Source: a virus (lineage: Duplodnaviria > Heunggongvirae > Uroviricota > Caudoviricetes). From it: a DNA stretch of 44,632 nucleotides. The stretch is taken from the IMG/VR virus record IMGVR_UViG_3300045988_026856, positions 1 to 44,632 of that record; one strand, given 5' to 3'. The translations under genes and the position numbers were made by a program. The stretch's first letter is position 1. Every line of letters starts with the position of its first letter. Shown here one piece after another: positions 344-42,486 of this stretch. The notes beneath the pieces were generated by a model that had not been told where the DNA came from, searched no databases, and saw only the letters and a program-made list of their open reading frames with translations.

Positions 344-634
344 TTACCGTTTAGCCAACCCTTCCAGCAAATTTTTATACTCTTCAAAATATTCCTCGAC
401 CAAATCATCGCCGAAATAGAAGTCGATATACTCGAGATTATCTCTTACGTTAAGCGATGCCGACATTGTGCTTAGTTGGCGTAAGCTAATTAGCTTCATT
501 TCTGTTTCTACGCAGAAAGGCCGGTAGGTATCAAGGTGGCAGGAGATGTTGAAGCATAAAGCGAACTCTCCGACCACGGAGTAGACCATATACACTTCGT
601 TTTCTGCCTTATTGTGGAAAATTACACCTTTCAT
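344..634 (-). CDS. hypothetical protein (96 aa)
   Basis: ORF track; AAGGAG RBS; start overlaps stop of upstream gene (ATGA). Confidence 0.55.
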   Translation of the reverse strand: MKGVIFHNKAENEVYMVYSVVGEFALCFNISCHLDTYRPFCVETEMKLISLRQLSTMSASLNVRDNLEYIDFYFGDDLVEEYFEEYKNLLEGLAKR

Positions 635-813
635 TTCACGTTCTCCTTAATCCATGCTTCAACTTTATTACGGTCAAATGTTCCTGGTAAACGGCGACCC
701 ATAACTTTAATACAGCAGTCAGGGAATTTGCCGCTGCGTAACCAGTTATTAATTGTCTGACGTGTCACCCCGATACGCTCGGCTACCTCATTCTGTGTCA
801 TGTAATGTTGCAT
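631..813 (-). CDS. AlpA/excisionase-like (MerR-type) HTH DNA-binding protein, 60 aa
   Basis: Start refined to internal Met (MQHYMTQNEVAERIGVTRQTINNWLRSGKFP...) with AGGAGA RBS; HTH_17/AlpA-like signature. Confidence 0.65.
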   Translation of the reverse strand: MQHYMTQNEVAERIGVTRQTINNWLRSGKFPDCCIKVMGRRLPGTFDRNKVEAWIKENVK

Positions 814-844
814 TTTTATATCTCCTGTTTGTTTAGTGAAACCG

Positions 845-873
845 AGTATAGGATAGCGGGAATGTAAAAGCAA
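845..873 (-). promoter_or_regulatory. sigma70-like promoter (TTGCTT-N17-TATACT) for the leftward operon
   Basis: -35/-10 hexamers on minus strand with 17-nt spacer, about 30 nt upstream of the AlpA-like gene. Confidence 0.35.
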
Positions 874-910
874 CCAATCCCTGCAATATTTAATCTTTAC
901 AAAAAAGTTA

Positions 911-940
911 TTGAAAGTTCTTGACATGTGTTTGTATAAT
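911..940 (+). promoter_or_regulatory. sigma70-like promoter (TTGAAA-N18-TATAAT)
   Basis: Near-consensus hexamers; about 350 bp upstream of the first early ORF. Confidence 0.45.
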
Positions 941-967
941 GGTTTTGGGACTTGTATATATTACGGA

Positions 968-999
968 GTTGACGAACCCTCCCCGAGGGATTCGTCAAC
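968..999 (+). promoter_or_regulatory. long imperfect inverted repeat (GTTGACGAACCCTC...GAGGGATTCGTCAAC) just downstream of the 911..940 promoter
   Basis: About 14-bp stem with one bulge, read directly from sequence. Confidence 0.4.
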
Positions 1000-1139
1000 C
1001 CCTCCCAGACAGCTGAGATGCTTGCCCAACGGTTTAAGGATAAGTGTATCTAAATCTCATTTAAAGAAGTAACCAGCTGAAATATCTACTGTTTCTTAAT
1101 GTGCCGTAGATTCGCAACCGTAAAAATGTAACGATTATC

Positions 1140-1168
1140 GGGCGGGCCTTAAGGCCTGCCCTTTAGTT
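1140..1168 (+). terminator. putative intrinsic terminator (GGGCGGGCC-TTAA-GGCCTGCCC + TTTAGTT)
   Basis: 9-bp GC-rich stem (one G-U) followed by a U-rich tract, plus strand only. Confidence 0.45.
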
Positions 1169-1233
1169 ACCAAGTAATAAGAATAAAGGCACAACCCTAC
1201 CTGAAGAATCACAACGGCAACGTAACTATTCTC

Positions 1234-5275: not shown

Positions 5276-5540
5276 GTTATTCTGGTTCGGCGGTATGCTG
5301 GCAATCGGGGGTACATCGCTGTTTAATGTGTACCATCCCAGCGTTGATGACGGGTTATTCGGTCGGGTGCTCTATATCCTGACTGCTATCGTCTGCGCCG
5401 CCGGATGTATCCACCTGTTACAGGGCAGCGTGTCACCAACGCTGCCTGAGACATTAATCACATTAGTTGCGCTGCGCCAGATTCGTCAGGCGTGGCTGTC
5501 ATACGGAGGACATAAGCGTGTCTCGAAATATTTCAGATAA
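5268..5540 (+). CDS. second holin-like / antiholin-like membrane protein (2 TM, 90 aa)
   Basis: ATG after GAGGAGG RBS, overlaps holin stop; two hydrophobic helices. Confidence 0.5.
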   Translation: MNELFWFGGMLAIGGTSLFNVYHPSVDDGLFGRVLYILTAIVCAAGCIHLLQGSVSPTLPETLITLVALRQIRQAWLSYGGHKRVSKYFR

Positions 5541-7344: not shown

Positions 7345-7515
7345 ATGTTCAGTGACATCAACGCGGCAATCGAAGAAGCAATATGGCGGCGCTATAACGG
7401 CGAGCAACAGCGGCACTTTTGCCTCGTGCAACGCGGTAACATGATTGCCGTAGTGCAGGACCGGGATAACAAATATCCGAATGCGATGTGGACAACGAGG
7501 AATTTCTTAGGATGA
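7345..7515 (+). CDS. hypothetical protein (56 aa)
   Basis: ATG after GGGGTGA; stop overlaps next start. Confidence 0.35.
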   Translation: MFSDINAAIEEAIWRRYNGEQQRHFCLVQRGNMIAVVQDRDNKYPNAMWTTRNFLG

Positions 7516-7754
7516 TTACCAGCATCCCAAACCTGATTAAAGAATTCGGCACGATGGCCGAGACATGCCGACAAACCGGCATCAACGAAATGACTATTGC
7601 CAAGTACAGCAAAGACGTGAACTGCGAGCGCCACGTAATTTATAACAACCGTCTTATGACGCACGTTAAAACAAGCCCGGTGTTATTCACGCGCCGGGGT
7701 ATCACTAAAACTGAGCAACGTATTGCCAGAGGGGAGAACGAATGCGGCTACTAA
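7512..7754 (+). CDS. small HTH-like protein (80 aa), possible transcriptional regulator upstream of the terminase
   Basis: ORF track, start refined to ATG; IKEFGTMAETCRQTGINEMTIAKYS HTH-like segment. Confidence 0.45.
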   Translation: MITSIPNLIKEFGTMAETCRQTGINEMTIAKYSKDVNCERHVIYNNRLMTHVKTSPVLFTRRGITKTEQRIARGENECGY

Positions 7755-11287: not shown

Positions 11288-12364
11288 ATGCTATTAACTT
11301 TAGCGCCACAGGGTTTATCTATGAGCTTACTTACATCTCTAATCAGCCATCAGATATGGCTGCAACGCGCCGCATCCGGTGAAGTGAAAGACCTCGCACC
11401 GTTCATCAAGGAAATGCGTGACGAAATCAAACGGCAGGTGCTGTTATTTGGTGACGACGGGCGAAGCACCGCGCGACTGAATAAATTGTTACGCGACCTC
11501 GAAGACGCACTGGCGGGTATTACGGGTGACTGGCAAACAAAGCTGACAGAAGACCTTAAGGAACTGGCGGCGTATGAGGCGGAGTGGAACGTAAAGACAC
11601 TGACCGCCAACGTAAACGCGGAATTTGTCACACCTACTGCCGAACAGGTGTGGTCCGCTGCCGAGTTTCAACCCTTATCATTAAGCGACAAGCCTGTTGA
11701 TTTCACTAAGCTGATGTCGGGATGGGGTGAAACCGAAGTAGCACGTCTCGTAACCGGCGTTAAGATGGGCTTTGTACAAGGCCAGACAACACGGCAGATT
11801 GTTAAGAATGTCGTAGGCGCTGGTGGGCTGACGGACATCTCTGAGCGTAACTCGGCTACCGTAATTCGCACCGCGCTGTCTCACGTATCCAACGAAGCGC
11901 GTAACGAGACGTACCGCCAGAACGACGACATCATCGAGAAGTACGAGTGGGTGTCGACGCTGGACAGCCGTACCAGCACGATTTGCAGAGCCAGAGACGG
12001 AATGACGTGGGAAATTGGTAAAGGGCCAATGCCCCCCGCCCATCCGAATTGCCGGTCGTGCACGGCTCCGGTAATCAGTTCAGAGTTCGACTTCCTGGAT
12101 AAAGGCGCAAAACGCGCGGCTAAGGGCGCAGATGGCGGTACTCAGGTAAGCGCGGACACCACCTATTACGAGTTCCTGAAACAACAACCGGCGTGGTTTC
12201 AGGATGAAGCGCTTGGTCCTGTTCGCGGTAAGATTTTCCGTAACAGCGGTATATCGCCGGAAGAGTTTCGCGTAATATCTGTAGATGGTTTCGGGAATCC
12301 GCTTACGCTTAAGCAGATGGCGGAACTCGATAAACGTGTTGCTGATTATCTGAAAGGGGAATAA
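11288..12364 (+). CDS. minor head protein, Mu F-like (head morphogenesis)
   Basis: EWVSTLDSRTSTICRARDGM motif typical of the Phage_Mu_F domain; alternative start at 11321. Confidence 0.75.
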   Translation: MLLTLAPQGLSMSLLTSLISHQIWLQRAASGEVKDLAPFIKEMRDEIKRQVLLFGDDGRSTARLNKLLRDLEDALAGITGDWQTKLTEDLKELAAYEAEWNVKTLTANVNAEFVTPTAEQVWSAAEFQPLSLSDKPVDFTKLMSGWGETEVARLVTGVKMGFVQGQTTRQIVKNVVGAGGLTDISERNSATVIRTALSHVSNEARNETYRQNDDIIEKYEWVSTLDSRTSTICRARDGMTWEIGKGPMPPAHPNCRSCTAPVISSEFDFLDKGAKRAAKGADGGTQVSADTTYYEFLKQQPAWFQDEALGPVRGKIFRNSGISPEEFRVISVDGFGNPLTLKQMAELDKRVADYLKGE

Positions 12365-12825
12365 TGATGGGCTTTTTCAAAGTAACTGATGTACCGTCAC
12401 GCCGCGTAGTCCAGTACGCCCGCGTGTCTGGCTCCGGTGAGAACGTGGTATTTATTGAAGATGAAAGTGTACTCGGTATACCGGTAGATGATATGCCGTT
12501 TGCTGATAAAACCGGTATTGCACTACCTGCGGCGGGCATGCTTTATGAAATTCCGTATCTGGCGGACGCGGGAGACGTGTATTTCTCTGTGCAACCGAAA
12601 GACACCGAACTGGCGGATGGCAGTGCAACTATCACCGTCGAAGTTAAGGCCGGTAAAGCACCATACGCGCTGACCTGGTACAAAGACGGGAAGGAAGTAG
12701 TAAACGCACCCGAAGAGGCTTTGTCTCTGATGGTTAATGCGGTAGGTGAATACTTCGTTAAAGTCACCGATGCCGGTGGAGTGGAGGCTGTGAGTAAAGC
12801 GGCGAAGGTCACTAAGCCAGAATGA
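12364..12825 (+). CDS. Ig-like domain protein (153 aa)
   Basis: C-terminal SATITVEVKAGKAPYALTWYKDGKEV...GEYFVKVTDAGG Ig-like pattern. Confidence 0.55.
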   Translation: MMGFFKVTDVPSRRVVQYARVSGSGENVVFIEDESVLGIPVDDMPFADKTGIALPAAGMLYEIPYLADAGDVYFSVQPKDTELADGSATITVEVKAGKAPYALTWYKDGKEVVNAPEEALSLMVNAVGEYFVKVTDAGGVEAVSKAAKVTKPE

Positions 12826-12829
12826 TAAG

Positions 12830-12851
12830 AGGCCCCGAAAGGGGCTTTTTT
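12830..12851 (+). terminator. intrinsic terminator (GGCCCC-GAAA-GGGGCT + T6)
   Basis: GC stem then TTTTTT. Confidence 0.65.
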
Positions 12852-13168
12852 AATGTCTGTTATTATTCCAGTTATTCCGCTCAATTGTAAATGTTGGAAT
12901 AAACTATTCGAATAGTTGACTTTTCACTAAAAATATGATAAGCTCCACCTGAGCTTGTGAAGTATGAACAAGCGACCGCGGCGCGGGCAGGTAACGGAGC
13001 GGGACGTAAGTCCTGAGTGTAGTTACGCTGACGCGTTCGGAAGGGCCATATTCTATTGCTTGTGTAAAAAGTAACTGGTTTACTGAGATTACGCCGTTTC
13101 TATGTTTAAATGATAAGGACTAGCGCCCCGCTTTAAGGCGGGGCTTTACTTATCAAGAAAGGGGAAAC

Positions 13169-13555
13169 ATGAATCTTAAAGCAACTGTCGTAGCGGGGGC
13201 ATGTTTCATCGTCCTGGCTTACGCACATGGCATCTACCAGTACCACAGCGGCTGGAACGAAGGCCGGGCGAATCTCATTTCGCAGCAACAGCAGAAAGCA
13301 CAGGCTGAGTTAGTGAAGAAAACACAACGGCAGCAGCAGGACGAATCAAAGGCCGCAGCCGCTGACAACGAAGGCAAGACGAAATCAGAGGTGATTACCC
13401 GTGAAGTCGTTAAGTACATTAAAACGCCTGGTCGCAGCGTGTGCACTTTTGACACTGAGCGCGTGCAACTCAAGTCCCGCGCCGTCACCAACGCCAATTC
13501 CATCCCCGGATACGACAATGATGCAGCCGCCGTGCAAACTGGCCGCGCCAAGTAG
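13169..13555 (+). CDS. i-spanin (Rz-like): N-terminal TM, Q/K/E-rich periplasmic domain
   Basis: MNLKATVVAGACFIVLAYAHGIY TM segment followed by charged coiled-coil-like region; o-spanin overlaps its 3' part. Confidence 0.7.
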   Translation: MNLKATVVAGACFIVLAYAHGIYQYHSGWNEGRANLISQQQQKAQAELVKKTQRQQQDESKAAAADNEGKTKSEVITREVVKYIKTPGRSVCTFDTERVQLKSRAVTNANSIPGYDNDAAAVQTGRAK

Positions 13556-13664
13556 CGATGCCGACGAGGATTTGGCTATCGACGTCCAGAACGCCGAATG
13601 TGTACGGCAACTGAGGCTGAAAGTGTTCATGTTGCAGGATTACGTGAGGAATATTCTGGAATAG
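13401..13664 (+). CDS. o-spanin (Rz1-like lipoprotein), overlapping Rz in the +1 frame
   Basis: Signal peptide with lipobox LTLSAC, then proline-rich mature region; GTG start after GAGGTG. Confidence 0.65.
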   Translation: MKSLSTLKRLVAACALLTLSACNSSPAPSPTPIPSPDTTMMQPPCKLAAPSSDADEDLAIDVQNAECVRQLRLKVFMLQDYVRNILE

Positions 13665-13746
13665 TTGCCTTGCATGTTGGAATAATTTATTCTTGACATG
13701 TAAATCCGGGCGGCCCGGGTTCCAACGTCCAGGGGACATACTGACT

Positions 13747-14448
13747 ATGAATCGTTTTTTACGTTATCCGTTCCAGGAAGAAGCTGGGGCAGAAGATAAA
13801 GCCGGTGGTGGAGACGCGCCGAAAATGTTCACCGCTGAAGAAGTTCAGGCGCTGATTGAGAAAGAAGTCGCCGGGCTTAAGGCCAATCAGGAAGCGTTGC
13901 TGGCGGAGAAGAAAGAAGCCGCCCGTAAAGCAAAAGAGGCCGAAGAAGAACGTCAGCGCGCACACCAGGAGGCGTTAAAAGCCGCTGGTAAGATGGACGA
14001 GTTCGAAAAGACGATTCGTAGCCAGTATGACCCGGTGTTAGCCGAGAAAGATGGTCGCATCTCCAAAATGGCAGAGCGCATCCTCGGTAGCGAACGTAAA
14101 GCGGTGCTAGGCTCTTTCGCGGGTGACTTTATTACCCCGGAAGCAGTGGACATTCTTGCACCGTTCGTTAAGACTGAGTTCGAAGGCGATGACGTGGTTA
14201 CTAAGTTTGTCGGCGCAGATGGTAACGTAATCACGACTGACCCGGAACAGTTCCGTAAATATCTGCGTGAACACAAAGCGTTTTCGCATTTGATTAAAGC
14301 GAATGCAGCTTCCGGCGGCGGGGCTTCCGGTAGCAAAGGCGGCGGGGCCGCACAAGCGTTTAAAGACATGAGTGAAGCGGAGCGTTTAGCTCTGTACAAA
14401 TCGAACCCTGCCGAATTTGAACGGCAACTTAAAGCCCTGAGGAAATAA
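13747..14448 (+). CDS. scaffolding protein
   Basis: A/E/K-rich coiled-coil-like protein immediately upstream of the capsid gene; start refined to internal ATG. Confidence 0.55.
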   Translation: MNRFLRYPFQEEAGAEDKAGGGDAPKMFTAEEVQALIEKEVAGLKANQEALLAEKKEAARKAKEAEEERQRAHQEALKAAGKMDEFEKTIRSQYDPVLAEKDGRISKMAERILGSERKAVLGSFAGDFITPEAVDILAPFVKTEFEGDDVVTKFVGADGNVITTDPEQFRKYLREHKAFSHLIKANAASGGGASGSKGGGAAQAFKDMSEAERLALYKSNPAEFERQLKALRK

Positions 14449-14450
14449 TA

Positions 14451-15500
14451 ATGGCAATTACCACTATCGGTGACATCGTAACTGGCAACGTACCCGTCCT
14501 TCTGTCTTACATGACCGAGGACCCGGTAGAGAAAACTGCGTTCTTCCAGTCTGGTATTCTGACCCCGACTCCATACGCTGCCGAGATTGCCCGCGGCCCG
14601 TCCAACGTCGCTAATATTCCTTTCTGGAAAGCGATTGATACTTCTATCGAGCCTAACTACTCGAACGACGTATACCAGGACATCGCCACCCCGCGTAACG
14701 TGCAGACCGGCGAGATGATGGCGCGCGTTGCATACCTGAACGAAGGCTTTGGGCAGGCTGACCTGACTGTTGAACTGACCAGCCAGAACCCGCTGCAATC
14801 CGTAGCGTCGCGTCTGGACAACTTCTGGCAGCGCCAGGCGCAACGCCGTCTTATTGCTACCGCGCTCGGTTTGTACAACGACAACGTAGCCGCTACCGAC
14901 GCGTACCACGAGCAGAACGACATGGTAATCGACGTGTCCTCTACTCTGGGCTTCGATGCAGGTGCGTTCATCGACGCTACCCAGACTATGGGCGATGCGC
15001 TGATGGGCAACGGCGGTGAAGTGCTGGGTGCTATCGCGATGCACAGCTTCGTTTATGCGCAGGCCCGTAAGCAGCAGCTTATTGACTTCATCAAAGACGC
15101 CGACAACGACACACTGTTCGCCACCTACCAGGGTTACCGCGTGATTGTTGACGACAGCATGACCGTAGTCGGCACCGGCTCTAGCCGTAAGTTCATCTCC
15201 ATTATCTTCGGTAACGGCGCTATCGGTTACGGTGAAGGTTCTCCGTCCAACCCGTTGGAATACGAGCGCGAAGCGTCTCGCGGCAACGGCGGTGGGGTAG
15301 AAACCCTGTGGACCCGTAAGACCTGGTTGCTGCACCCACTGGGCTACAGCTTTACCAGCGCAGTAATCACCGGTAACGGCACCGAAACCGTCGCACGTTC
15401 TGCTTCCTGGCAGGACCTGGCGAACGCTTCCAACTGGAACCGTGTGGTTGACCGTAAGCATGTACCGATTGCCTTCCTGGTAACTGGTGTCGGTGCTTAA
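14451..15500 (+). CDS. major capsid protein
   Basis: 349 aa, position after scaffold, followed by a strong terminator. Confidence 0.65.
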   Translation: MAITTIGDIVTGNVPVLLSYMTEDPVEKTAFFQSGILTPTPYAAEIARGPSNVANIPFWKAIDTSIEPNYSNDVYQDIATPRNVQTGEMMARVAYLNEGFGQADLTVELTSQNPLQSVASRLDNFWQRQAQRRLIATALGLYNDNVAATDAYHEQNDMVIDVSSTLGFDAGAFIDATQTMGDALMGNGGEVLGAIAMHSFVYAQARKQQLIDFIKDADNDTLFATYQGYRVIVDDSMTVVGTGSSRKFISIIFGNGAIGYGEGSPSNPLEYEREASRGNGGGVETLWTRKTWLLHPLGYSFTSAVITGNGTETVARSASWQDLANASNWNRVVDRKHVPIAFLVTGVGA

Positions 15501-19996: not shown

Positions 19997-20024
19997 AACT
20001 AAGGCCCCTTTCGGGGCCTTTTTC
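19997..20024. terminator. bidirectional terminator (AAGGCCCC-TTTC-GGGGCCTT, A-rich before, T-rich after)
   Basis: Perfect 8-bp stem between convergent genes. Confidence 0.65.
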
Positions 20025-27439: not shown

Positions 27440-27955
27440 ATGAGCCAGGAATCTGTAGAAGCCGCCTATCGCCGTAAGCTGGCCTCAAACCCCGACGGCG
27501 AGATGGACTACATCACGTTGCAAATCAGCCACCCGTTGCTGTCAAAGACGTACTATCTTGTGCGCGGGCTACAGGAACTTACGGCAACACTGGAGACAGG
27601 CGAAACAATAACATTCGAGCCAACCCCGATGGAGGCGTCGGGAGCGGCTAACAACAGTGATATGGACCAGACTACGACGTTTACTTTACCGGATATCCTC
27701 AATCAACTGGATGATGAGATGGATAAAATCCCGATGAGCAATACTGAGTTGCCTAAGTTCGTCTTCCGTCGTTATGTCAGCACCGACCTGTCTTACCCGG
27801 CTGACGGCCCTGTCGTGTACGAGTTACAGGCCATCAACCAGGAGAAGGGCGAGTTCTCCGCGGATGTCGGTACACCTATGCTGAACCAACGAAGCACTGG
27901 TATACTGATGACACCTAAAGAGATACCGTTATTACGCGGCCTGTTGACAACATGA
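27440..27955 (+). CDS. minor tail protein (171 aa)
   Basis: Position between gpM-like and gpK-like genes. Confidence 0.45.
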   Translation: MSQESVEAAYRRKLASNPDGEMDYITLQISHPLLSKTYYLVRGLQELTATLETGETITFEPTPMEASGAANNSDMDQTTTFTLPDILNQLDDEMDKIPMSNTELPKFVFRRYVSTDLSYPADGPVVYELQAINQEKGEFSADVGTPMLNQRSTGILMTPKEIPLLRGLLTT

Positions 27956-28317
27956 ATATTAACGACTACACGGGCATACCTTACGACTTTCGCAAGCGCA
28001 ATTGCTGGCATCATGTGCGAATTGTGCGGGCGGATGCCGGGTTAGAAACCCCGGCGTTCGACGTCACAAGCCCAACGGCAATTAATGAAGCGTTCGACGA
28101 AGGACATCGCAACACGAAGGGGCTTACGAAAATAGATAAGCCTGAAAACTTCTGTGCGGTGCTTATGGGGTATCGCCGTGGTGGTCGTATCGTGTGGCAC
28201 GCAGGAGTTTACTTCGACGGGATGGTTAGCCATTGCGAGCTTGCTTCTCGTCAGGTACGGCTTGACAGGCTGGCGGACCTCAGAGACACGTACACGGAGA
28301 TTGAATTTTGGCGATAA
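27952..28317 (+). CDS. NlpC/P60-family tail assembly protein (gpK-like)
   Basis: NCWHHVRIV ... HAGVYFDGMVSHCE Cys/His arrangement. Confidence 0.6.
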   Translation: MNINDYTGIPYDFRKRNCWHHVRIVRADAGLETPAFDVTSPTAINEAFDEGHRNTKGLTKIDKPENFCAVLMGYRRGGRIVWHAGVYFDGMVSHCELASRQVRLDRLADLRDTYTEIEFWR

Positions 28318-30863
28318 TCCTGCACTACACGCGAAACGCTGATGGCGCTTTCGACCGTACAAAACACGTCGGGATGCCGATGGAGTTTGTCGTTAACCGT
28401 ATCCCGGACGGCGTGCCGGTGCGCGTCTACCTCGGCGAAATTGGTGATGATACCGACGTAACTGACGACTTCGACGCACTCAAAGACGAAGACGCCGTGT
28501 ACCACATTATAGAGGGTGCTGGTAGCGGGGCGCTTGGTGCCGTTAGTAAGGTGTTTGGTTTTATCCTTAAGCCAATCGCTAAGTTGTTTGGTCTGAACAT
28601 GTCCGCAAACGCCAACTATACGGCGACTAACAACCAGACAACATCACCAAATAACAGCCTCGCAGACCGCTCAAACAAACCACGCCCTTACGAGCGCTCC
28701 TATGACATCTGCGGGACCGTGCAGACGATCCCTAATGACCTGATGCAGACGTATAAGGCGTTCAACTCCACTGGTGCTTTGCTGGAATATTCGTACTATG
28801 ACGCAGGGCGCGGACATCTGCATATTGAGGCTGATGGCGTCACAGAGGGCGACACCCTGATAAGCGACATCACAGGTTCCTCTGTTGCCATATATGCACC
28901 GTATACGTCACCGAACAACACCACATCGCCGCAACTACAAATCGGCGACGTCATTGACCAGAAACTCTATGCGACATACTCCAACGACGACGTTGACGGT
29001 ATTGTACTGAAAGCACCAAACGACATCGGGGCCAACCCAAGCTCCGGTGGAACCGCCAAACGTATTTCGACCACCGGCTACCTATATGACCCGTCGGGTG
29101 ATTCTGCTTTTTCTGAGTTTCTTAGTGTTGGTGATGTCGCAGTGTTGAGCAATTTCGACGTTAAGGACGTCACTAACCTAAACGGCTCGTTTGAAGTTTT
29201 ATACGTCGACGACTTTGAGGTTCGGTTGTACGTCGGGGATATAGGTAACTGGGGCAATCTTAATAACGGAGAGACTTACGCACTTACAGAGCGTTCTGAC
29301 ACGTTTATCGCCCCGAGCAACACCTATGACGTATCTCTTACGGACTGGTATTACATGGTGCGCGGAGAGGTTGACCGGGTGCTTGCTAACGTTGCCGGGC
29401 AGAACGGCCTCTACAAATACGACGGGGGCTATAACCGCACCAGTGTAACGGTGGAACTCCAGTACCAGATGATTGACTCCCAACGCAACCCTTTGAGCGA
29501 CATTTACACGGTACAGGCTACAATTACAGGCAACAGTACGGATTACGTCGGTACGTCTATCTACGGGCAGTTGCCGACCGCGTCTCGTTTCCGCGCCCGC
29601 ATGCGCCGTATAACTAATTTCGACAAGGACTACGACGGTACAGTAAGCGACGAGATAACGTTCATCAACCTGTACGGTCAGTCACTGGACACTACCCCGC
29701 ACTACGGCAACCGAACTACAGTACATTGCACCCGTAAACAGACACCACGCGCCGCCAGTATCGATAACCCTGAACTGCGCATGATTGCTACAGAGATGTG
29801 CTACAAATACCTCGGCAATGGGGTATTCGATACAGTAATGTCGCCAAACACTCAGGCCGTGCAGTCGCTAATCAGACTGGCTCGCGACCCGGCGGTGGGC
29901 AATCTGGAACTGACAACGGCAAACATGGATAAGTTGCTTGCCGTGCAGGAAGAAATTGAGTCCTATTTTGGCAGTGAATTAGCCGGACAATTCTGCTACA
30001 CGTTCGACGACTACGATACCACGATGCAGGACATAGTTCAGACCATAGCGGAAGCCGTATTCTGTACTGCGTACCGCAAAGGTGCAGATATTATGCTGCG
30101 ATTCGACCGTCCGGTTGCGGGGCCTGAAATGGTGTTCACCCACCGCAGTAAGACGACCGGTACGGAGAAATGGACACGCACGTTCAATGATTCGACAACC
30201 TACGATAGCTTGTCGTTCTCGTACATCGACCCGGATACTAACGTACAGGAAACGATTTATATCCCGGAAGAACTCGGCGCAAACACCGAGGAATACGAAT
30301 CGAAGGGCGTACGTAACTATCAGCAGGCGTATTGGCTGGCGTGGCGGCGCTACCAACGCAATGCGTTAAGTAAAGTTGTCGTAGAGTTCGAAGCTACCGA
30401 AGAAGGCGCTCTAGCTACTCCCGGCGGCGTAATCAGCGTGGTTAAAGGCTCCCGCATCGCGCCGCAGGATGGTTATGTTGTCGCCGTTAATGGGCTTGCG
30501 CTTACGCTGTCGCAGCCGGTTACGTTTACTCCAGGGGATGACCACTCCATCATTCTTAAGAAGCGAGACGGTTCGGTGCAGAGTATCTCTGTTATCAAAG
30601 GAAGCCATGACCGCGAGGTGATTATGCTCTCTGCGCCGGAGGAAGCCATCTACACAGGGAATAGTGCGCTAAAAACTGAGTTTTCATTCGGCAACGAAGC
30701 AAGGCATAATGCTCAGAAGATAGTTGTTTCTTCAATCGACCCCGGCGACGACCGCACGGTCAAGATTACTGGCTACAACTATGACGACGGATTCTATAAA
30801 TACGACGGCGTCGCGCCATACGGCAGCGGTTTCTCCGACGGATTCAGCAATGGTTTTAATTAA
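28308..30863 (+). CDS. tail tip / host-specificity protein (gpJ-like), 851 aa
   Basis: Large protein after M/L/K-like genes. Confidence 0.5.
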   Translation: MAIILHYTRNADGAFDRTKHVGMPMEFVVNRIPDGVPVRVYLGEIGDDTDVTDDFDALKDEDAVYHIIEGAGSGALGAVSKVFGFILKPIAKLFGLNMSANANYTATNNQTTSPNNSLADRSNKPRPYERSYDICGTVQTIPNDLMQTYKAFNSTGALLEYSYYDAGRGHLHIEADGVTEGDTLISDITGSSVAIYAPYTSPNNTTSPQLQIGDVIDQKLYATYSNDDVDGIVLKAPNDIGANPSSGGTAKRISTTGYLYDPSGDSAFSEFLSVGDVAVLSNFDVKDVTNLNGSFEVLYVDDFEVRLYVGDIGNWGNLNNGETYALTERSDTFIAPSNTYDVSLTDWYYMVRGEVDRVLANVAGQNGLYKYDGGYNRTSVTVELQYQMIDSQRNPLSDIYTVQATITGNSTDYVGTSIYGQLPTASRFRARMRRITNFDKDYDGTVSDEITFINLYGQSLDTTPHYGNRTTVHCTRKQTPRAASIDNPELRMIATEMCYKYLGNGVFDTVMSPNTQAVQSLIRLARDPAVGNLELTTANMDKLLAVQEEIESYFGSELAGQFCYTFDDYDTTMQDIVQTIAEAVFCTAYRKGADIMLRFDRPVAGPEMVFTHRSKTTGTEKWTRTFNDSTTYDSLSFSYIDPDTNVQETIYIPEELGANTEEYESKGVRNYQQAYWLAWRRYQRNALSKVVVEFEATEEGALATPGGVISVVKGSRIAPQDGYVVAVNGLALTLSQPVTFTPGDDHSIILKKRDGSVQSISVIKGSHDREVIMLSAPEEAIYTGNSALKTEFSFGNEARHNAQKIVVSSIDPGDDRTVKITGYNYDDGFYKYDGVAPYGSGFSDGFSNGFN

Positions 30864-36905: not shown

Positions 36906-39103
36906 TTAGCATATCTGTACATTTCGCTACCTTCCGCTACAAGAGGGAACCCCTCCGCCCACTCTGGCAACGCACACATTAATTTTTCCAGTTCAGGCAC
37001 CGTGTAATCCGGCGTATCTGGAGTTTCACATACCAGTTCATCGTGTACCGAAAGCACGATGGGATACCCGCCACCCTCAACATTAATCATCGCATATGCG
37101 AGTAAATCACGGCACAGCGCCTGAACAATGTTTTCGCAGGCTTTGCCGCCGTGGGTGTACAGGGTAGTCCATTGGCGGGTTAACTGGTTTTCACCCTGAT
37201 ACTTGATTCGCACATTCGTGTTTACCCGTCCGTCTTCGTCTGTTTCTTTTGTCACGCTAACGCCGATTCCTGGATACGAGAGGATACGGCCCGACGGCAA
37301 CTCCATACACAACCACCAACCGGGAACCTTCCTACCGGATGAATCGGTTTCTACTGTTCTCCAGATTCGGATAGCGCGCTCGCCATTCTTGCGCAGATGC
37401 GCCCCCGCCCAAAATTCACGACCCGGATTTCTTACAGCGGCTAAAATACCGTCTTTGAGGTCGCGCCAGAACGCTACTGTTTCCGGGTGTGACTCGCGCC
37501 ACATACGCTTGATTGCGTCGCAGGTGCGCCACACTTTCTTGTCCAGAATATACGATGGTCGGTCATCCTTCTCACCTGGATGCGGGGGGCGCTTGGCTTC
37601 CTGGATGCGCGCCCATTCATATCCTCTCGCGGTGGCTGACCAGATGTGGTCCGGGAATGTACCGTCCATTGTTTTAGCCATCTCAATAAGGTCGAGGCCT
37701 AAGTTTTTGGCGAACGTAACGAATGCTCCGACGCCTCCCTCGTAGCCGAGGCCCAGTTCGCATGCTTTGCCTATCTGTCTGATTTCCTTAAAGTTTTTCT
37801 TAATATCGTCGGGGTCCATGCCAAACATCTTACCTGCAGTTACGCAATAAATATCCAACCCGGCGCGGAAAGTATCAAGCGCGGTTTCTTCGCCTGCCAA
37901 CCACGCAAGCCCACGACCCTCAACGTTAGAGTAATCGGCAACAACAAACTTATGCCCCACTTCCGGTATGATGCAGCTACGTACCGTCGATGCCGTTAGC
38001 TTGGCTACATCAAAACGGCGGTGTGCCCGGCCTTTAAGTAACGCTGAAATGCCTTTATCCAGTTCATCATCGTGATAGTACCCGCGCGCCAGGTTCTGTG
38101 GTTGGAAGCCTTTACCCGCCCACCGCAAAGTGCGTTTTGCCCCACCGTACTGTAAACAACCCCGGCGGCGGTCGTCCGATGAGCGGCCCAACAGCAGTGG
38201 GTTATATTTCGTTGACGCGGTGGATGCGGCCCCGAGGCGCATTTCGATAATCGTGCGAGCATCGTCCGGTAAATCATCGTCCGCCAGCAGGTCGTTAAGC
38301 GTAGACTTCTGCGCGTTGTGGATGCGGTGCGCAGGGGCCAGTTCACGAAGAATCGGCAGAAAGTCCTTACCAGTAAGCGAGCCGCCGTATTTGCGTTGGG
38401 CTTCCTCCTGTAACTGCGCTTTGTGTTTCTCCACGGCTTCAATAGCGGCTTCCGCCAGTGCAACGTCAACCTTAAACCCGCGGTCGTTGATTAACTGGTC
38501 CAGTTCCAGTACACGGTCTTCGAACTCAGAGTTACCCCAACGCGGCAGCTTATGGAAGACTTCACGCATCGCAGTGATGTCGCTCACGGCGTACTTGATG
38601 AACCGCGCCCACTCGTCCGGGTGTGTTTCTGCGGTGTAGCGGCGGATTTTGTAATTCTTCGGTGTCGGTTTAGAGAAACGCTGAATCAGCGCCTTGCCGC
38701 GTTTATCTTTTGCATTGTCAGCAGACACGCCAAGCACTTCACACAGCGCATCAAGCGAACCCGGCAGCGCGTGACGAAACGCCCAAATCATCGTATCAAT
38801 GGTGTTGCTTACGGGAATATCAAAGCCCCAGCAGTGTTTCATGATGGGCCTATCGAACATTGAGCCGTTGTGCCACACCATCTTAATACGACTGTTTGGC
38901 TTAACCAGCCGGCGCAAGGCGCGGTGCAAATCGCCCGGCATGTCACTGCCGTCGGTGCAGTCCCATGCCTGCACAGGCTCGTCGTCAAAAGCATAGGTAC
39001 AGATAAGCACTTCGGTAGTTGGGTGTTCGGCGTAAGCGTAGGAGCCGACTTTCTTCAAATCGGCTTCGGAGAATGTTTCAAAGTCTAAGAACAGGTAACT
39101 CAT
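36902..39103 (-). CDS. family A DNA polymerase with 3'-5' exonuclease domain
   Basis: N-terminal FLDFETFS exonuclease motif; DYSNVEGR motif A-like. Confidence 0.85.
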   Translation of the reverse strand: MSYLFLDFETFSEADLKKVGSYAYAEHPTTEVLICTYAFDDEPVQAWDCTDGSDMPGDLHRALRRLVKPNSRIKMVWHNGSMFDRPIMKHCWGFDIPVSNTIDTMIWAFRHALPGSLDALCEVLGVSADNAKDKRGKALIQRFSKPTPKNYKIRRYTAETHPDEWARFIKYAVSDITAMREVFHKLPRWGNSEFEDRVLELDQLINDRGFKVDVALAEAAIEAVEKHKAQLQEEAQRKYGGSLTGKDFLPILRELAPAHRIHNAQKSTLNDLLADDDLPDDARTIIEMRLGAASTASTKYNPLLLGRSSDDRRRGCLQYGGAKRTLRWAGKGFQPQNLARGYYHDDELDKGISALLKGRAHRRFDVAKLTASTVRSCIIPEVGHKFVVADYSNVEGRGLAWLAGEETALDTFRAGLDIYCVTAGKMFGMDPDDIKKNFKEIRQIGKACELGLGYEGGVGAFVTFAKNLGLDLIEMAKTMDGTFPDHIWSATARGYEWARIQEAKRPPHPGEKDDRPSYILDKKVWRTCDAIKRMWRESHPETVAFWRDLKDGILAAVRNPGREFWAGAHLRKNGERAIRIWRTVETDSSGRKVPGWWLCMELPSGRILSYPGIGVSVTKETDEDGRVNTNVRIKYQGENQLTRQWTTLYTHGGKACENIVQALCRDLLAYAMINVEGGGYPIVLSVHDELVCETPDTPDYTVPELEKLMCALPEWAEGFPLVAEGSEMYRYAK

Positions 39104-42270: not shown

Positions 42271-42486
42271 ATGCAACCATCTGAATTAGGCATCCGTGTA
42301 GAACAACGCCGTAAAGAACTCGGCATCTCCCAGCGCCGTCTGGCGGTGCTGACCGGGGTTTCCCAGGGCGCAATTAACCAGCTGGCACTTGGGGTAACCC
42401 AGGACGTCCGCCCGGCAACGCTGTTTAAACTGGCGGAAGTGCTGGAGGTAGACGCCAAGTGGCTGGCGCTAGGTGAAGGGGCTTAA
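42271..42486 (+). CDS. XRE-family (Cro/CI-type) HTH regulator
   Basis: LGISQRRLAVLTGVSQGAINQL HTH; AGGAG RBS. Confidence 0.7.
   Translation: MQPSELGIRVEQRRKELGISQRRLAVLTGVSQGAINQLALGVTQDVRPATLFKLAEVLEVDAKWLALGEGA

What the first reader, a model, noticed from the sequence alone, without database searches (positions are those of the whole stretch)
12856..13168. 310-bp structured noncoding region upstream of the spanins
It contains the 12-bp palindrome CTATTCGAATAG, a TTGACT hexamer with no properly spaced -10, the hairpin AGCTC-CACCT-GAGCT, a GC-rich stretch, and a terminator-like hairpin (GCCCCGC-TTTAAG-GCGGGGC, about 13123..13147). The only ORF is a weak 36-codon one (12964..13074) with no good RBS. 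It could encode a small RNA or be a regulatory or recombination site.
Basis: seen in the sequence. Interest (0 to 1): 0.4.

Follow-up and report, generated by a model that had tools for sequence, protein, structure and literature searches.

The report
Promoter plus conserved structured phage RNA
The gap before the spanin genes of this Kagunavirus-type phage holds a host-type promoter followed by a roughly 200-base folded RNA that is conserved, matches no known RNA family, and probably controls transcription into the late genes.

Summary
TTGACT (12916-12921) does have a correctly spaced extended -10, TGaTAAGCT (12936-12944, 17-bp spacer), and this is conserved in three diverged types of the element.

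Transcription should start near 12951. It would give an RNA with three hairpins, P1 to P3 (12953-13030), then an invariant single-stranded CGGAAGGGCC (13038-13047), a variable 3' half, and an extended hairpin (13111-13155) just before the Rz ribosome-binding site.

- **Structure:** 98% of cells pair and 16 of 25 pairs change on both sides; slid controls pair at 27-44%.
- **Selection:** diversity in the element is 0.035, against 0.14-0.29 at third codon positions of neighbouring genes.
- **Not coding:** the 36-codon ORF is broken or absent in relatives.
- **Not a known family:** no Rfam or tRNA match, and no match in 5,426 E. coli genomes.
- **Second copy:** 43 of 181 related phage records carry the same promoter and core at the start of the early operon.
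- **Terminator:** the 3' hairpin looks like a terminator only in the window's type.

Best reading: a portable cassette of promoter plus cis-acting leader RNA. Its mechanism is untested; a put-like effect on elongation or termination is my preferred guess. It is a new phage RNA family of moderate interest.

The parts
12830..12851 (+). Strong intrinsic terminator of the upstream Hoc-like head-decoration gene. It marks the left boundary of the unit.
   Evidence: GGCCCC-GAAA-GGGGCC followed by TTTTTT. The terminator discriminant is d = +34.9.
12863..12915 (.). Site A: a cluster of GGAATA/TATTCC half-sites. It comprises TTATTCC at 12863-12869 and at 12872-12878, the palindrome GGAATA-aac-TATTC at 12896-12909, and GAATAG at 12910-12915, which abuts the -35. 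It is a presumed operator for a dimeric DNA-binding protein.
   Evidence: Clusters of this motif occur only here and at 13645-13692 in the window. The cluster is conserved at about 80% between the K, J and T types. It is absent from the paralogous copy at the early operon. That a protein binds it is inferred.
12916..12944 (+). Sigma-70 extended -10 promoter, here called P_K: -35 TTGACT (12916-12921), a 17-nt spacer, TG (12936-12937) and -10 TAAGCT (12939-12944). The predicted start site is G12951 or A12952.
   Evidence: The sequence is. The same architecture is found in the J type (TAGACT-17-TGtTACGCT), the T type (TGGACT-17-TGaTAACCT) and the paralogous copy (TTGACT-17-TGcTAAGCT). Promoter activity and the start site are inferred.
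12953..12973 (+). P1, a hairpin at the 5' end of the RNA: GCUUGU-GAAGUAUGA-ACAAGC.
   Evidence: 100% of cells pair, and 4 of 6 pairs change on both sides across types. In the Infernal alignment 5 of 6 pairs do so.
12976..12986 (+). P2, a short GC hairpin: CCGC-GGC-GCGG.
   Evidence: 98.8% of cells pair, and 2 of 4 pairs change on both sides. The T type has CGCC-GCAA-GGCG.
12988..13030 (+). P3, a long hairpin. The outer stem is CAGGUAAC with GUUAC-G-CUG, the internal loop is GGAG opposite AGUGUA, and the inner stem is CGGGAC-GUAA-GUCCUG with a GNRA-type loop.
   Evidence: In the inner stem all 6 pairs change on both sides; in the outer stem 4 of 9 do. Compensatory changes also occur within the K type in L012, L023, L005 and L011. 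G-U pairs fit the + strand only.
13038..13047 (+). Invariant single-stranded motif CGGAAGGGCC. In the K type the conserved stretch continues as AUAnnCUAUUG.
   Evidence: Columns 108-114 are invariant in all K, J and T sequences and in the paralogues. No partner sequence was found in the window beyond chance.
13048..13110 (+). Type-specific 3' half of the leader. It includes the hairpin AGUAA-CUGGU-UUACU and the segment GAUUACGCCGUUUCU.
   Evidence: It is nearly invariant within the K type (diversity 0.03-0.04) but is replaced in the other types and in the paralogue.
13111..13155 (+). Extended 3' hairpin. The basal stem is UGAUAAG with CUUAUCA, and the apical stem is GCCCCGC-UUUAAG-GCGGGGC (13125-13144) followed by UUUA. 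It is a moderate intrinsic terminator in this type only.
   Evidence: Searches give d = +14.0. Both stems covary: GCCCUGC/GCAGGGC in L008, GCCCGGC/GCCGGGC and GCCCGAC/GUCGGGC in the J type, and a basal stem UAUACG/CGUAUA in the J type.
13158..13171 (+). Ribosome-binding site (AAAGGGG) and start codon of the Rz spanin gene, the first gene downstream.
   Evidence: The predicted accessibility of the site is unremarkable: 0.34, against 0.45 +/- 0.11 for other genes.
12964..13074 (+). The 36-codon ORF. It is not a gene.
   Evidence: It is truncated to 9 or 17 codons, frameshifted, or lacks its ATG in some K-type relatives, and is absent from the J and T types. It is annotated as a hypothetical protein in some records.

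Best explanation
The region is a self-contained cassette made of three parts:
1. An operator-like cluster of GGAATA repeats.
2. A host sigma-70 extended -10 promoter (-35 at 12916-12921, TG plus -10 at 12936-12944).
3. The gene for a structured noncoding RNA of about 200 nt that starts near 12951.

The RNA folds as it is made into three hairpins, P1 to P3, and then exposes an invariant CGGAAGGGCC. A type-specific 3' half follows, ending in an extended hairpin directly before the Rz ribosome-binding site.

I read the RNA as a cis-acting, promoter-proximal leader. Polymerases that start at this promoter carry the folded core, and the core decides how many of them continue. To continue they must pass the 3' hairpin (a moderate terminator in this phage) and run on into Rz/Rz1. 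They would also have to pass the internal terminators of the structural-gene operon. Polymerases that stop at the hairpin would release an RNA of about 195 nt as a by-product.

Shown by the data:
- The promoter architecture is conserved.
- The structure covaries on the + strand.
- The whole element is under purifying selection.
- It does not code for protein.
- It always lies upstream of Rz.
- A paralogous copy of promoter plus core sits at the head of the early operon in about a quarter of close relatives.

Inferred only:
- The promoter is active and starts at 12951/12952.
- The RNA acts in cis.
- The specific mechanism. I prefer a put-like modification of elongating RNA polymerase, or attenuation, at about 0.2-0.25 on its own.
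For: - **Promoter.** TTGACT-17-TGaTAAGCT is. The 17-bp spacer, the TG, and T1/A2/T6 of the -10 are kept in the J and T types and in the paralogue.
- **Structure.** On the hand-registered alignment of 21 distinct sequences, 98.3% of cells pair and 16 of 25 pairs change on both sides. Covariation is 0.51 against 0.14 in shuffles (0 of 500 reach it), and slid registers give 27-44% pairing. An Infernal alignment that includes the paralogues gives 94.7% pairing and 17 of 25 pairs.
- **One copy per locus.** The covariance model finds one copy per locus, always on the + strand. In the window it lies at 12945-13047, at 69 bits.
- **Selection.** Diversity is 0.035 in the element, against 0.14-0.29 at third codon positions and 0.02-0.055 at first and second positions of the flanking genes. 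The element is 95-99% identical in 168 of 181 records, while the 4.5-kb neighbourhood is about 92% identical.
- **Link to downstream genes.** The upstream gene ends in a strong terminator, d = +35. No other promoter-like site lies between that terminator and Rz. Every type sits directly upstream of Rz.
- **Leader rather than terminated small RNA.** The 3' hairpin is terminator-like only in the K type: d = +14, against -3 to -66 elsewhere and -13 and -40 in the paralogues.
- **Tied to the promoter, not to Rz.** 43 of 181 records have a second copy of promoter plus core, about 80% identical with compensated differences. It lies in the divergent intergenic region that heads the rightward early operon, for example KMB36 36991-37095.
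- **Terminators to read through.** Terminator-like hairpins lie downstream in the late operon, after the capsid gene (d = +15) and at 20001-20020 (d = +38). Promoter-like sites there are fewer than in shuffles, 9 against 19.
- **No protein antiterminator seen.** None is annotated or found among the regulators tested.
Against: - There are no transcript data. Promoter activity, the start site and read-through are all predictions.
- The only Kagunavirus RNA-seq paper found reports gene-level classes only.
- The covariance model gives no similarity to the HK022 immunity region, which holds putL and putR (best 5.9 bits). Any put-like action would therefore be analogy, not homology.
- The window itself has only one copy.
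- One sequenced Jerseyvirus (UPWr_S1) lacks P2-P3 through a 46-nt deletion between CCGCG repeats. That part is thus not strictly essential, unless the record is faulty.
- In the K type the 3' hairpin is a credible terminator, so a discrete trans-acting RNA cannot be excluded.
- Terminators after capsid genes are common in phages and need no dedicated antitermination.
- Part of the covariation comes from a few deep splits (K, J, T), and the first alignment was registered by hand to the structure.
Confidence: 0.4

Rival explanations
1. It is a free-standing, trans-acting phage small RNA gene. The promoter at 12916-12944 and the terminator at 13125-13144 would give an abundant RNA of about 195 nt. 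Its invariant single-stranded CGGAAGGGCC would act as a seed or protein-binding site against a host or phage target.
For: The window's own type has a promoter plus a hairpin that scores as a terminator, d = +14. The unit lies between two terminators. An invariant unpaired motif is typical of small-RNA seeds. The cassette moves between lineages as a unit. A paralogue exists.
Against: The 3' hairpin is not terminator-like in the J, T, U and V types or in either paralogue variant, so in most family members the RNA must continue into the downstream genes. The U-tract is short and is itself paired in a basal stem, unlike typical Hfq-dependent small RNAs. No complementary site in the window exceeds chance. 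There is no match to any Rfam small-RNA family.
Confidence: 0.2
2. It is an element for mRNA stability or processing. The 5'-terminal hairpin P1 would protect the late transcript from 5'-end-dependent decay. The long P3 hairpin with its internal loop would be an RNase III-type processing site, as in T7 mRNAs. The RNA would have no effect on transcription.
For: P1 begins 1-2 nt after the predicted start site in all three types and covaries. P3 has the layout of lower stem, internal loop and upper stem. Being attached to two different operons fits a generic mRNA-fate function.
Against: This does not explain the invariant CGGAAGGGCC or the near-invariance of every loop and linker within a type. 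P3 has about 14-15 bp, shorter than the roughly two helical turns usual for RNase III substrates (established knowledge, not tested here). A simple stabiliser should not need about 100 conserved nucleotides.
Confidence: 0.15
3. It is a riboswitch-like attenuator. The conserved core would be a sensor (aptamer) for a metabolite, an ion or a protein. The variable 3' half plus the hairpin would be the expression platform that gates the spanin and late genes.
For: The layout is classic: a conserved 5' structured domain, a variable linker, and a hairpin immediately before the ribosome-binding site. Conservation of unpaired nucleotides is very high.
Against: There is no match to any of the 4,227 Rfam families, even at E up to 10. 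The terminator is not conserved across types. No conserved terminator/antiterminator alternative was found. Predicted accessibility of the Rz ribosome-binding site is ordinary and varies between types, 0.31-0.62. The same core precedes unrelated early genes in the paralogue, with a different 3' platform.
Confidence: 0.1
4. It is a DNA-level element, such as a replication origin, a packaging site or a site-specific recombination site, and the hairpins are incidental.
For: Repeated GGAATA half-sites and an AT-rich promoter spacer resemble iterons plus an unwinding element. The left edge of the cassette is an insertion hot spot, and the cassette is exchanged between lineages.
Against: The covariation includes G-U pairs that would be A-C mismatches on the other strand, which points to RNA. 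GC skew shows no inflection near 13 kb; it follows the direction of transcription. The paralogue keeps the transcribed core but not the GGAATA cluster.
Confidence: 0.04
5. It encodes the 36-residue peptide of ORF 12964-13074.
For: The ORF is intact in most K-type relatives, and some pipelines annotate it.
Against: There is no Shine-Dalgarno sequence. The ORF is truncated, frameshifted or lacks its start in some K-type sequences and in all J and T sequences, while the RNA helices are preserved.
Confidence: 0.01

Closest known systems
HK022 put RNAs (putL and putR), cis-acting antiterminator RNAs (PMC9378689)
   Same: Both are structured RNAs encoded immediately downstream of host-type promoters, and putL starts at +3. 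Both occur as two diverged copies at the heads of two operons; here this holds in 43 of 181 relatives. In both, terminators lie downstream and no phage protein is required in principle.
   Different: There is no detectable sequence or structure similarity; the model gives at most 5.9 bits on the HK022 immunity region. This RNA has three hairpins plus an invariant single-stranded motif, about 95 nt in all, rather than two long stems of about 70 nt. This is a virulent siphophage, not a lambdoid one. No function has been tested, and the window has only one copy.
Lambda PR'-6S RNA-tR' late leader with Q antitermination
   Same: In both, a sigma-70 promoter makes a terminated leader of about 200 nt directly upstream of lysis genes, followed by head and tail genes. 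Lambda has S, R, Rz and Rz1 there; this phage has Rz and Rz1.
   Different: No Q-like gene is annotated or found among the regulators tested. The lambda leader is not a conserved structured RNA, whereas here the structure is the most conserved feature. The holin, endolysin, terminase and portal genes lie elsewhere.
Riboswitches and transcription attenuators (Rfam cis-regulatory families)
   Same: Both have a conserved structured 5' domain, a variable linker and a hairpin before the first gene.
   Different: There is no Rfam match. The terminator is not conserved. No ligand is known and no alternative pairing was demonstrated.
T7-type RNase III processing hairpins and 5' stabilising stem-loops (for example the ompA 5' UTR)
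   Same: Both have a 5'-terminal hairpin at +1 and a long hairpin with an internal loop within a phage mRNA leader.
   Different: The stems here are shorter, and an extra invariant single-stranded motif is present. Processing has not been tested.

Membership tests
Sigma-70 extended -10 promoter | A TG dinucleotide one base upstream of a -10 hexamer that has A at position 2 and T at position 6, about 17 bp from a -35-like hexamer. | tested here: met
   The window has TTGACT, 17 nt, then TGaTAAGCT at 12916-12944. The same layout occurs in the J and T types and in the paralogue. Activity was not measured.
Structured noncoding RNA (general) | Base pairs maintained by compensatory substitutions on one strand, and no conserved reading frame. 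| tested here: met
   98.3% and 94.7% of cells pair, and 16-17 of 25 pairs change on both sides; slid controls pair at 27-48%. The ORF is not conserved.
Any Rfam 15 family | A score at or above the family's gathering threshold. | tested here: not met
   There are no hits in the window. Only chance-level hits occur at E up to 10 in 12700-13300. None falls in the element of the J, T, U or V loci or of KMB36.
tRNA / tmRNA | A cloverleaf detected by ARAGORN. | tested here: not met
   There are 0 genes in the window. The 'tRNA-Ser' annotated in some Jerseyvirus records lies on the minus strand over the end of the Hoc-like gene, outside the core.
Rho-independent terminator (3' hairpin 13125-13144) | A GC-rich stem followed by a U-tract; a positive d'Aubenton-Carafa discriminant. 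| tested here: met
   In the window and the K type d = +14.0. This is not a family-wide feature: the J type scores -3 to -17, the T, U and V types -30 to -66, and the paralogues -13 and -40.
HK022 put RNA | Sequence and secondary-structure similarity to putL/putR (two long stems, about 70 nt). | tested here: not met
   The covariance model R1, run with filters off on HK022 27600-30600, gives a best score of 5.9 bits at E 0.19. The architecture also differs (compared with PMC9378689).
HK022 put RNA | Copies placed just downstream of the promoters of two separate operons. | tested here: inconclusive
   This is met in 43 of 181 related records, for example KMB36. It is not met in the window, which has one copy.
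HK022 put RNA | It makes RNA polymerase resistant to terminators in cis through the beta' zinc-binding domain. | not testable with these tools
   This needs in vitro transcription or rpoC mutants.
Lambda-type Q/qut late control | A phage-encoded Q-family antiterminator. | tested here: inconclusive
   None is annotated in Bas76 or KMB36. Nine candidate small proteins scanned against Pfam gave only HTH_17, HTH_3 and a weak NinH match. Not every small ORF was scanned.
Hfq-type trans-acting small RNA | A terminator hairpin with a long free 3' U-tail, plus a seed with conserved targets. | tested here: not met
   The tail is UUUACUUAUC, and it is paired in a basal stem. No complementary site exceeds chance in the window. 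Host targets could not be tested.
Small protein gene | A reading frame conserved among relatives. | tested here: not met

The most novel reading that the evidence does not exclude
Guernseyvirinae phages may use a protein-independent antiterminator or anti-pausing RNA that acts in cis. It would be functionally like HK022 put but unrelated in sequence and fold. It would be fused to a dedicated sigma-70 promoter as a portable cassette. That cassette heads the Rz/structural-gene operon and, in many relatives, the early operon as well. If so, this would be the second known class of RNA that reprograms E. coli RNA polymerase by itself, and the first in virulent phages.
Probability: 0.2. Interest if true: 0.8.

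Novelty: new variant of a known kind. Interest (0 to 1): 0.55.

Why it matters
Kagunavirus and Jerseyvirus phages are widely isolated for therapy and biocontrol of E. coli and Salmonella. Their transcription programme is nevertheless essentially uncharted, and this region is either left unannotated or mis-annotated as a hypothetical protein.

The analysis defines a new RNA family supported by covariation, together with its promoter. It is under selection as strong as that on protein sequence. It is exchanged between lineages as a cassette, and in many genomes it is duplicated at the head of the early operon.

This gives a concrete and cheap experimental handle on how these phages gate late and lysis genes: a leader of about 100 nt, one promoter and one terminator. 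If the RNA acts on RNA polymerase, it would broaden a mechanism known so far only from HK022. Even if it is only a leader or stabiliser, annotators should stop calling the 36-codon ORF.

Tried and rejected
- **Known RNA families.** Rfam at gathering threshold and at E up to 10, and ARAGORN, found nothing.
- **Automatic alignment.** MAFFT followed by RNAalifold on unregistered sequences gave no structure, because P1 was misaligned. A first N-padded alignment was shifted by MAFFT and discarded.
- **CRISPR-repeat mimic (my own lead).** The terminator stem CCCCGC/GCGGGG equals the E. coli type I-E repeat stem. I rejected this because the J and T types have other stems and the flanks do not match.
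- **Leader peptide or boxA/ops-like sites.** I read these by eye only. Matches were weak and not conserved across types, so I make no claim.
- **Masking of the Rz ribosome-binding site.** Predicted accessibility is ordinary: 0.34 against 0.45 +/- 0.11, rank 5 of 29, and 0.31-0.62 in other types.
- **A target for the invariant motif.** Complementary sites in the window are no more frequent than chance.
- **Replication origin.** GC skew shows no inflection near the region.
- **Host origin or prophage copies.** There is no match in 5,426 complete E. coli genomes.
- **Wider distribution.** The 14-base motif gave many chance hits in bacterial and viral collections. The model rejected all 172 non-Guernseyvirinae stretches tested: they scored 15-23 bits from the motif alone, against 25.7-75 bits for true members. 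The remaining 20 genome stretches were not run.
- **Homology to put.** Rejected.
- **Literature.** Searches found no description of the element. The Kagunavirus RNA-seq paper has no coverage-level data.
- **A fourth hairpin, P4 (GCCAUA-nnC-UAUUGC).** The paralogue and the U type do not keep the pairing, so I treat that stretch as conserved sequence, not as a helix.

Full report
**Context.** The window is a complete or near-complete Kagunavirus-like siphophage genome of the subfamily Guernseyvirinae. The 4.5 kb around the finding is about 92% identical to many Escherichia Kagunavirus records and 80-90% identical to Salmonella Jerseyvirus records. The gene order is terminase, portal, head-morphogenesis protein, Hoc-like decoration protein (12364-12825), the noncoding region, Rz (13169-13555) with Rz1 embedded (13401-13664), scaffold, and major capsid.

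**Checking the observation.** Two points need correction.

- TTGACT (12916-12921) is followed, after exactly 17 nt, by TAAGCT (12939-12944), with TG at 12936-12937. This is an extended -10 promoter. The consensus scan missed it because TAAGCT matches only 3 of 6 positions. Those three are T1, A2 and T6, which established sigma-70 knowledge ranks as the positions that matter most.
- The AGCTC/GAGCT repeat (12941-12955) straddles the -10 and the predicted start site, and it is not an inverted repeat in other types. I treat it as incidental.

**Relatives and element types.** The 345 bp are 95-99% identical in 168 of 181 phage records. I fetched 74 IMG/VR loci through the neighbouring head-morphogenesis protein. 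Reading the sequence upstream of Rz in those loci shows discrete types.

| Type | Where found | Relation to the window's element |
|---|---|---|
| K | the window and Kagunaviruses | reference type |
| J | Jerseyviruses, 269 records | same promoter design and core, diverged sequence |
| T | phiEap-2, 'pink' and Cornellvirus FSL SP-031 | same promoter design and core, diverged sequence |
| U | L042, L057, L072 | different promoter and 5' half; shares its 3' half with T |
| V | L047, L049, L050, L052, L056 | more distant; shares some 3' motifs with T |

K, J and T share four things:
- the upstream GGAATA cluster;
- the promoter design (17-bp spacer, TGn, TAnnnT);
- three hairpins at equivalent positions but with different sequences;
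- an invariant CGGAAGGGYC.

**The element is exchanged as a cassette.** L031 and L066 have Jerseyvirus-like flanks, 53-86% identical per 100-bp bin upstream of about 12400 and 62-91% downstream of about 13200. Yet they carry a K-type element that is 96-97% identical. Many relatives have 0.3-1.3-kb insertions exactly between the upstream terminator and position 12863.

**Structure.** I segmented the reference sequence of each type into helices and loops, carried the segmentation through within-type alignments, and merged the types. The N-padded rows stayed in register through MAFFT, giving alignment A2.

- On 21 distinct sequences, 98.3% of 463 cells form standard pairs.
- 16 of 25 pairs change on both sides.
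- The covariation score is 0.51, against 0.14 in shuffles (0 of 500 reach it).
- Sliding the 3' partners by 1-3 columns drops pairing to 27-44%, with 1-3 covarying pairs.

Because that alignment was fitted by hand, I built a covariance model from it and let Infernal align all hits, including the paralogues found later. This gave 94.7% pairing and 17 of 25 pairs with double changes.

Unambiguous compensatory changes also occur within types:
- L012 and L023 change two pairs of the inner P3 stem.
- L005 and L011 turn a G-U pair into C-G.
- L012 turns U-A into G-C in the outer P3 stem.
- J-type variants turn C-G into U-A.
- T1 and T2 differ by A-U against G-C.

Several pairs are G-U, which fits the + strand only. 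The 206-nt transcript folds somewhat better than shuffles, with z = -2.05.

**Selection and coding.** Among 24 K-type loci plus the window, nucleotide diversity is 0.035 across the element. That equals first and second codon positions of the flanking genes (0.02-0.055) and is 4-8 times lower than third positions (0.14-0.29). The low diversity covers the promoter, the core, the 3' half and the hairpin alike. The 36-codon ORF loses its ATG, is cut to 9 or 17 codons, or is frameshifted in some K-type sequences, and does not exist in J or T.

**The 3' hairpin.** It is an extended hairpin. The apical GC stem (13125-13144) is followed by UUUA, and the next bases (CUUAUCA) pair with UGAUAAG (13111-13117). 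Both stems covary within K and between K and J. I applied one terminator discriminant to all types.

| Site | Discriminant d |
|---|---|
| K-type 3' hairpin (window) | +14 |
| Terminator of the Hoc-like gene | +35 |
| J-type 3' hairpin | -3 to -17 |
| T, U and V types | -30 to -66 |

So the conserved property is a hairpin next to the Rz ribosome-binding site, not termination. In most members the RNA must be a 5' leader. Predicted masking of the ribosome-binding site is not unusual, so I cannot support translational control.

**A paralogue at the early operon.** I scanned viral contigs for the motif and compared the hits. This revealed second copies, about 80% identical to window 12916-13058, which spans the promoter, the core and the motif.

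- The second copy keeps TTGACT-17-TGcTAAGCT, P1 to P3 (with compensated differences, mostly in P3) and UUCGGAAGGGCC.
- It lacks the GGAATA cluster and has a different 3' half.
- It lies in the divergent intergenic region between a leftward helix-turn-helix gene and the first gene of the rightward early operon, syntenic with window 877-1204.
- In KMB36 the model finds both copies, at 5335-5437 and 36991-37095.
- 43 of 181 records have two places.

The window has a different cassette at that locus: a near-consensus promoter (911-940), a long hairpin (about 968-1000) and a terminator-like extended hairpin (1140-1161, d = +18.7). That extended hairpin has the same basal-stem, UUUA and apical-stem design as the one at 13111-13155. 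Promoter-plus-leader cassettes are therefore interchangeable modules at two operon heads.

**What it is not.**
- It matches no Rfam family in any type.
- It is not a tRNA.
- It has no match in 5,426 E. coli genomes.
- The HK022 put region shows no similarity.
- There is no GC-skew signal of a replication origin.
- I tested 172 motif-containing stretches: 100 of the 120 from bacterial genomes and the 72 non-Guernseyvirinae viral ones. None scores as a member.
- The accessible literature does not describe the element.

**Mechanism.** The following is shown:
- a conserved promoter design;
- a conserved, covarying RNA on the + strand that begins at the promoter;
- a constant position upstream of Rz;
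- linkage of the core to the promoter rather than to Rz, shown by the paralogue.

The following is inferred. The RNA acts in cis on transcripts or polymerases that start at this promoter. I favour control of elongation or termination, for four reasons:
- The core is promoter-proximal and duplicated at two operon heads, like putL and putR.
- A terminator-like hairpin follows it in this phage.
- Further terminators lie inside the late operon with few promoter-like sites.
- No protein antiterminator is evident.

This is analogy, not membership. The rivals remain open: a trans-acting small RNA, a stabilising or processing element, and a ligand-sensing attenuator. The GGAATA cluster abutting the -35, repeated before the scaffold gene, suggests that a phage DNA-binding protein times this promoter. 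That too is inference.

**Verdict.** This is a real, functional and previously undescribed phage RNA element with its own promoter. Its class, a structured leader or noncoding RNA cassette, is familiar, but the family and its modular, two-locus deployment are new. Interest is 0.55.

Noticed in passing
window 911-1170: A second cassette of promoter, structured RNA and hairpin heads the rightward early operon. It has TTGAAA-18-TATAAT (911-940), a long near-perfect hairpin GUUGACGAACCCUC...GGGAUUCGUCAAC (about 968-1000), and a terminator-like extended hairpin (1140-1161, d = +18.7). That hairpin is built like the one at 13111-13155. In 43 of 181 relatives this slot holds a paralogue of the K-type promoter plus core instead. 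The promoter resembles the one used upstream of Rz in U-type phages.
   Followed up: partly
window 13645-13749: Site B lies between Rz1 and the scaffold gene. It holds GGAATA half-sites and the palindrome GGAATA-att-TATTC (13679-13692). Two small hairpins follow: AUCCGGG-CGG-CCCGGGU, which covaries between types, and GUCC-AGG-GGAC. Then comes the scaffold ATG (13747), which has no obvious Shine-Dalgarno sequence. The 12-mer ATGTTGGAATAA is shared exactly with site A (12891 and 13674).
   Followed up: partly
window 12852-12891, minus strand: A promoter-like site on the minus strand, TTTACA-18-AATAAT with TG (12891 to 12862), points into the terminator. Relatives carry 0.3-1.3-kb insertions exactly at 12852-12863, such as a small minus-strand ORF (Bas76_0006) or genes annotated as a RusA-like resolvase. 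This junction is an insertion hot spot.
   Followed up: partly
L317 (Jerseyvirus jersey UPWr_S1) 38259-38301: This record has a natural deletion of about 46 nt that removes part of P2 and all of P3. It lies between two CCGCG repeats and leaves P1 joined to ...AACGCAUUCGGAAGGGCC. Either P2-P3 is dispensable in that phage, or the record carries an assembly error.
   Followed up: no
L036 4976-5054 (minus strand); NC_073202.1 12662-12739: ARAGORN and some GenBank records call a 'tRNA-Ser' on the minus strand, over the 3' end of the Hoc-like gene and its terminator. It is found in only some Jerseyviruses and overlaps a coding sequence, so it is probably a false positive.
   Followed up: partly
L031, L066, L054 compared with window 11300-15500: These loci are sharply mosaic. 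L054 has a head-morphogenesis protein only 66% identical to the window's, but the Hoc-like gene, the element, Rz and the scaffold gene are 91-99% identical. L031 and L066 are Jerseyvirus-like apart from a K-type tract at about 12300-13250.
   Followed up: partly
L321 (X87092.1, Salmonella phage MB78) 2252-2258; homologous to the window's scaffold gene, about 14350-14370: This 1990s record annotates ribosomal frameshifting in the scaffold-gene homologue (p26/p28). I did not check whether the window keeps the slippery site.
   Followed up: no
L047 3358-3424 (minus strand): There is an Rfam int-alpA RNA hit just above threshold (36.5 bits against a gathering score of 35.8) in a distant relative, upstream of its head-morphogenesis gene.
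   Followed up: no
window 631-927 (minus strand), 42271-42486 (+), 7488-7754 (+): The first encodes an HTH_17 (excisionase-like) protein and the second a Cro/CI-type HTH_3 protein. The third gives a weak NinH-like match. The first two are the only evident candidates to bind the GGAATA palindromes.
   Followed up: partly
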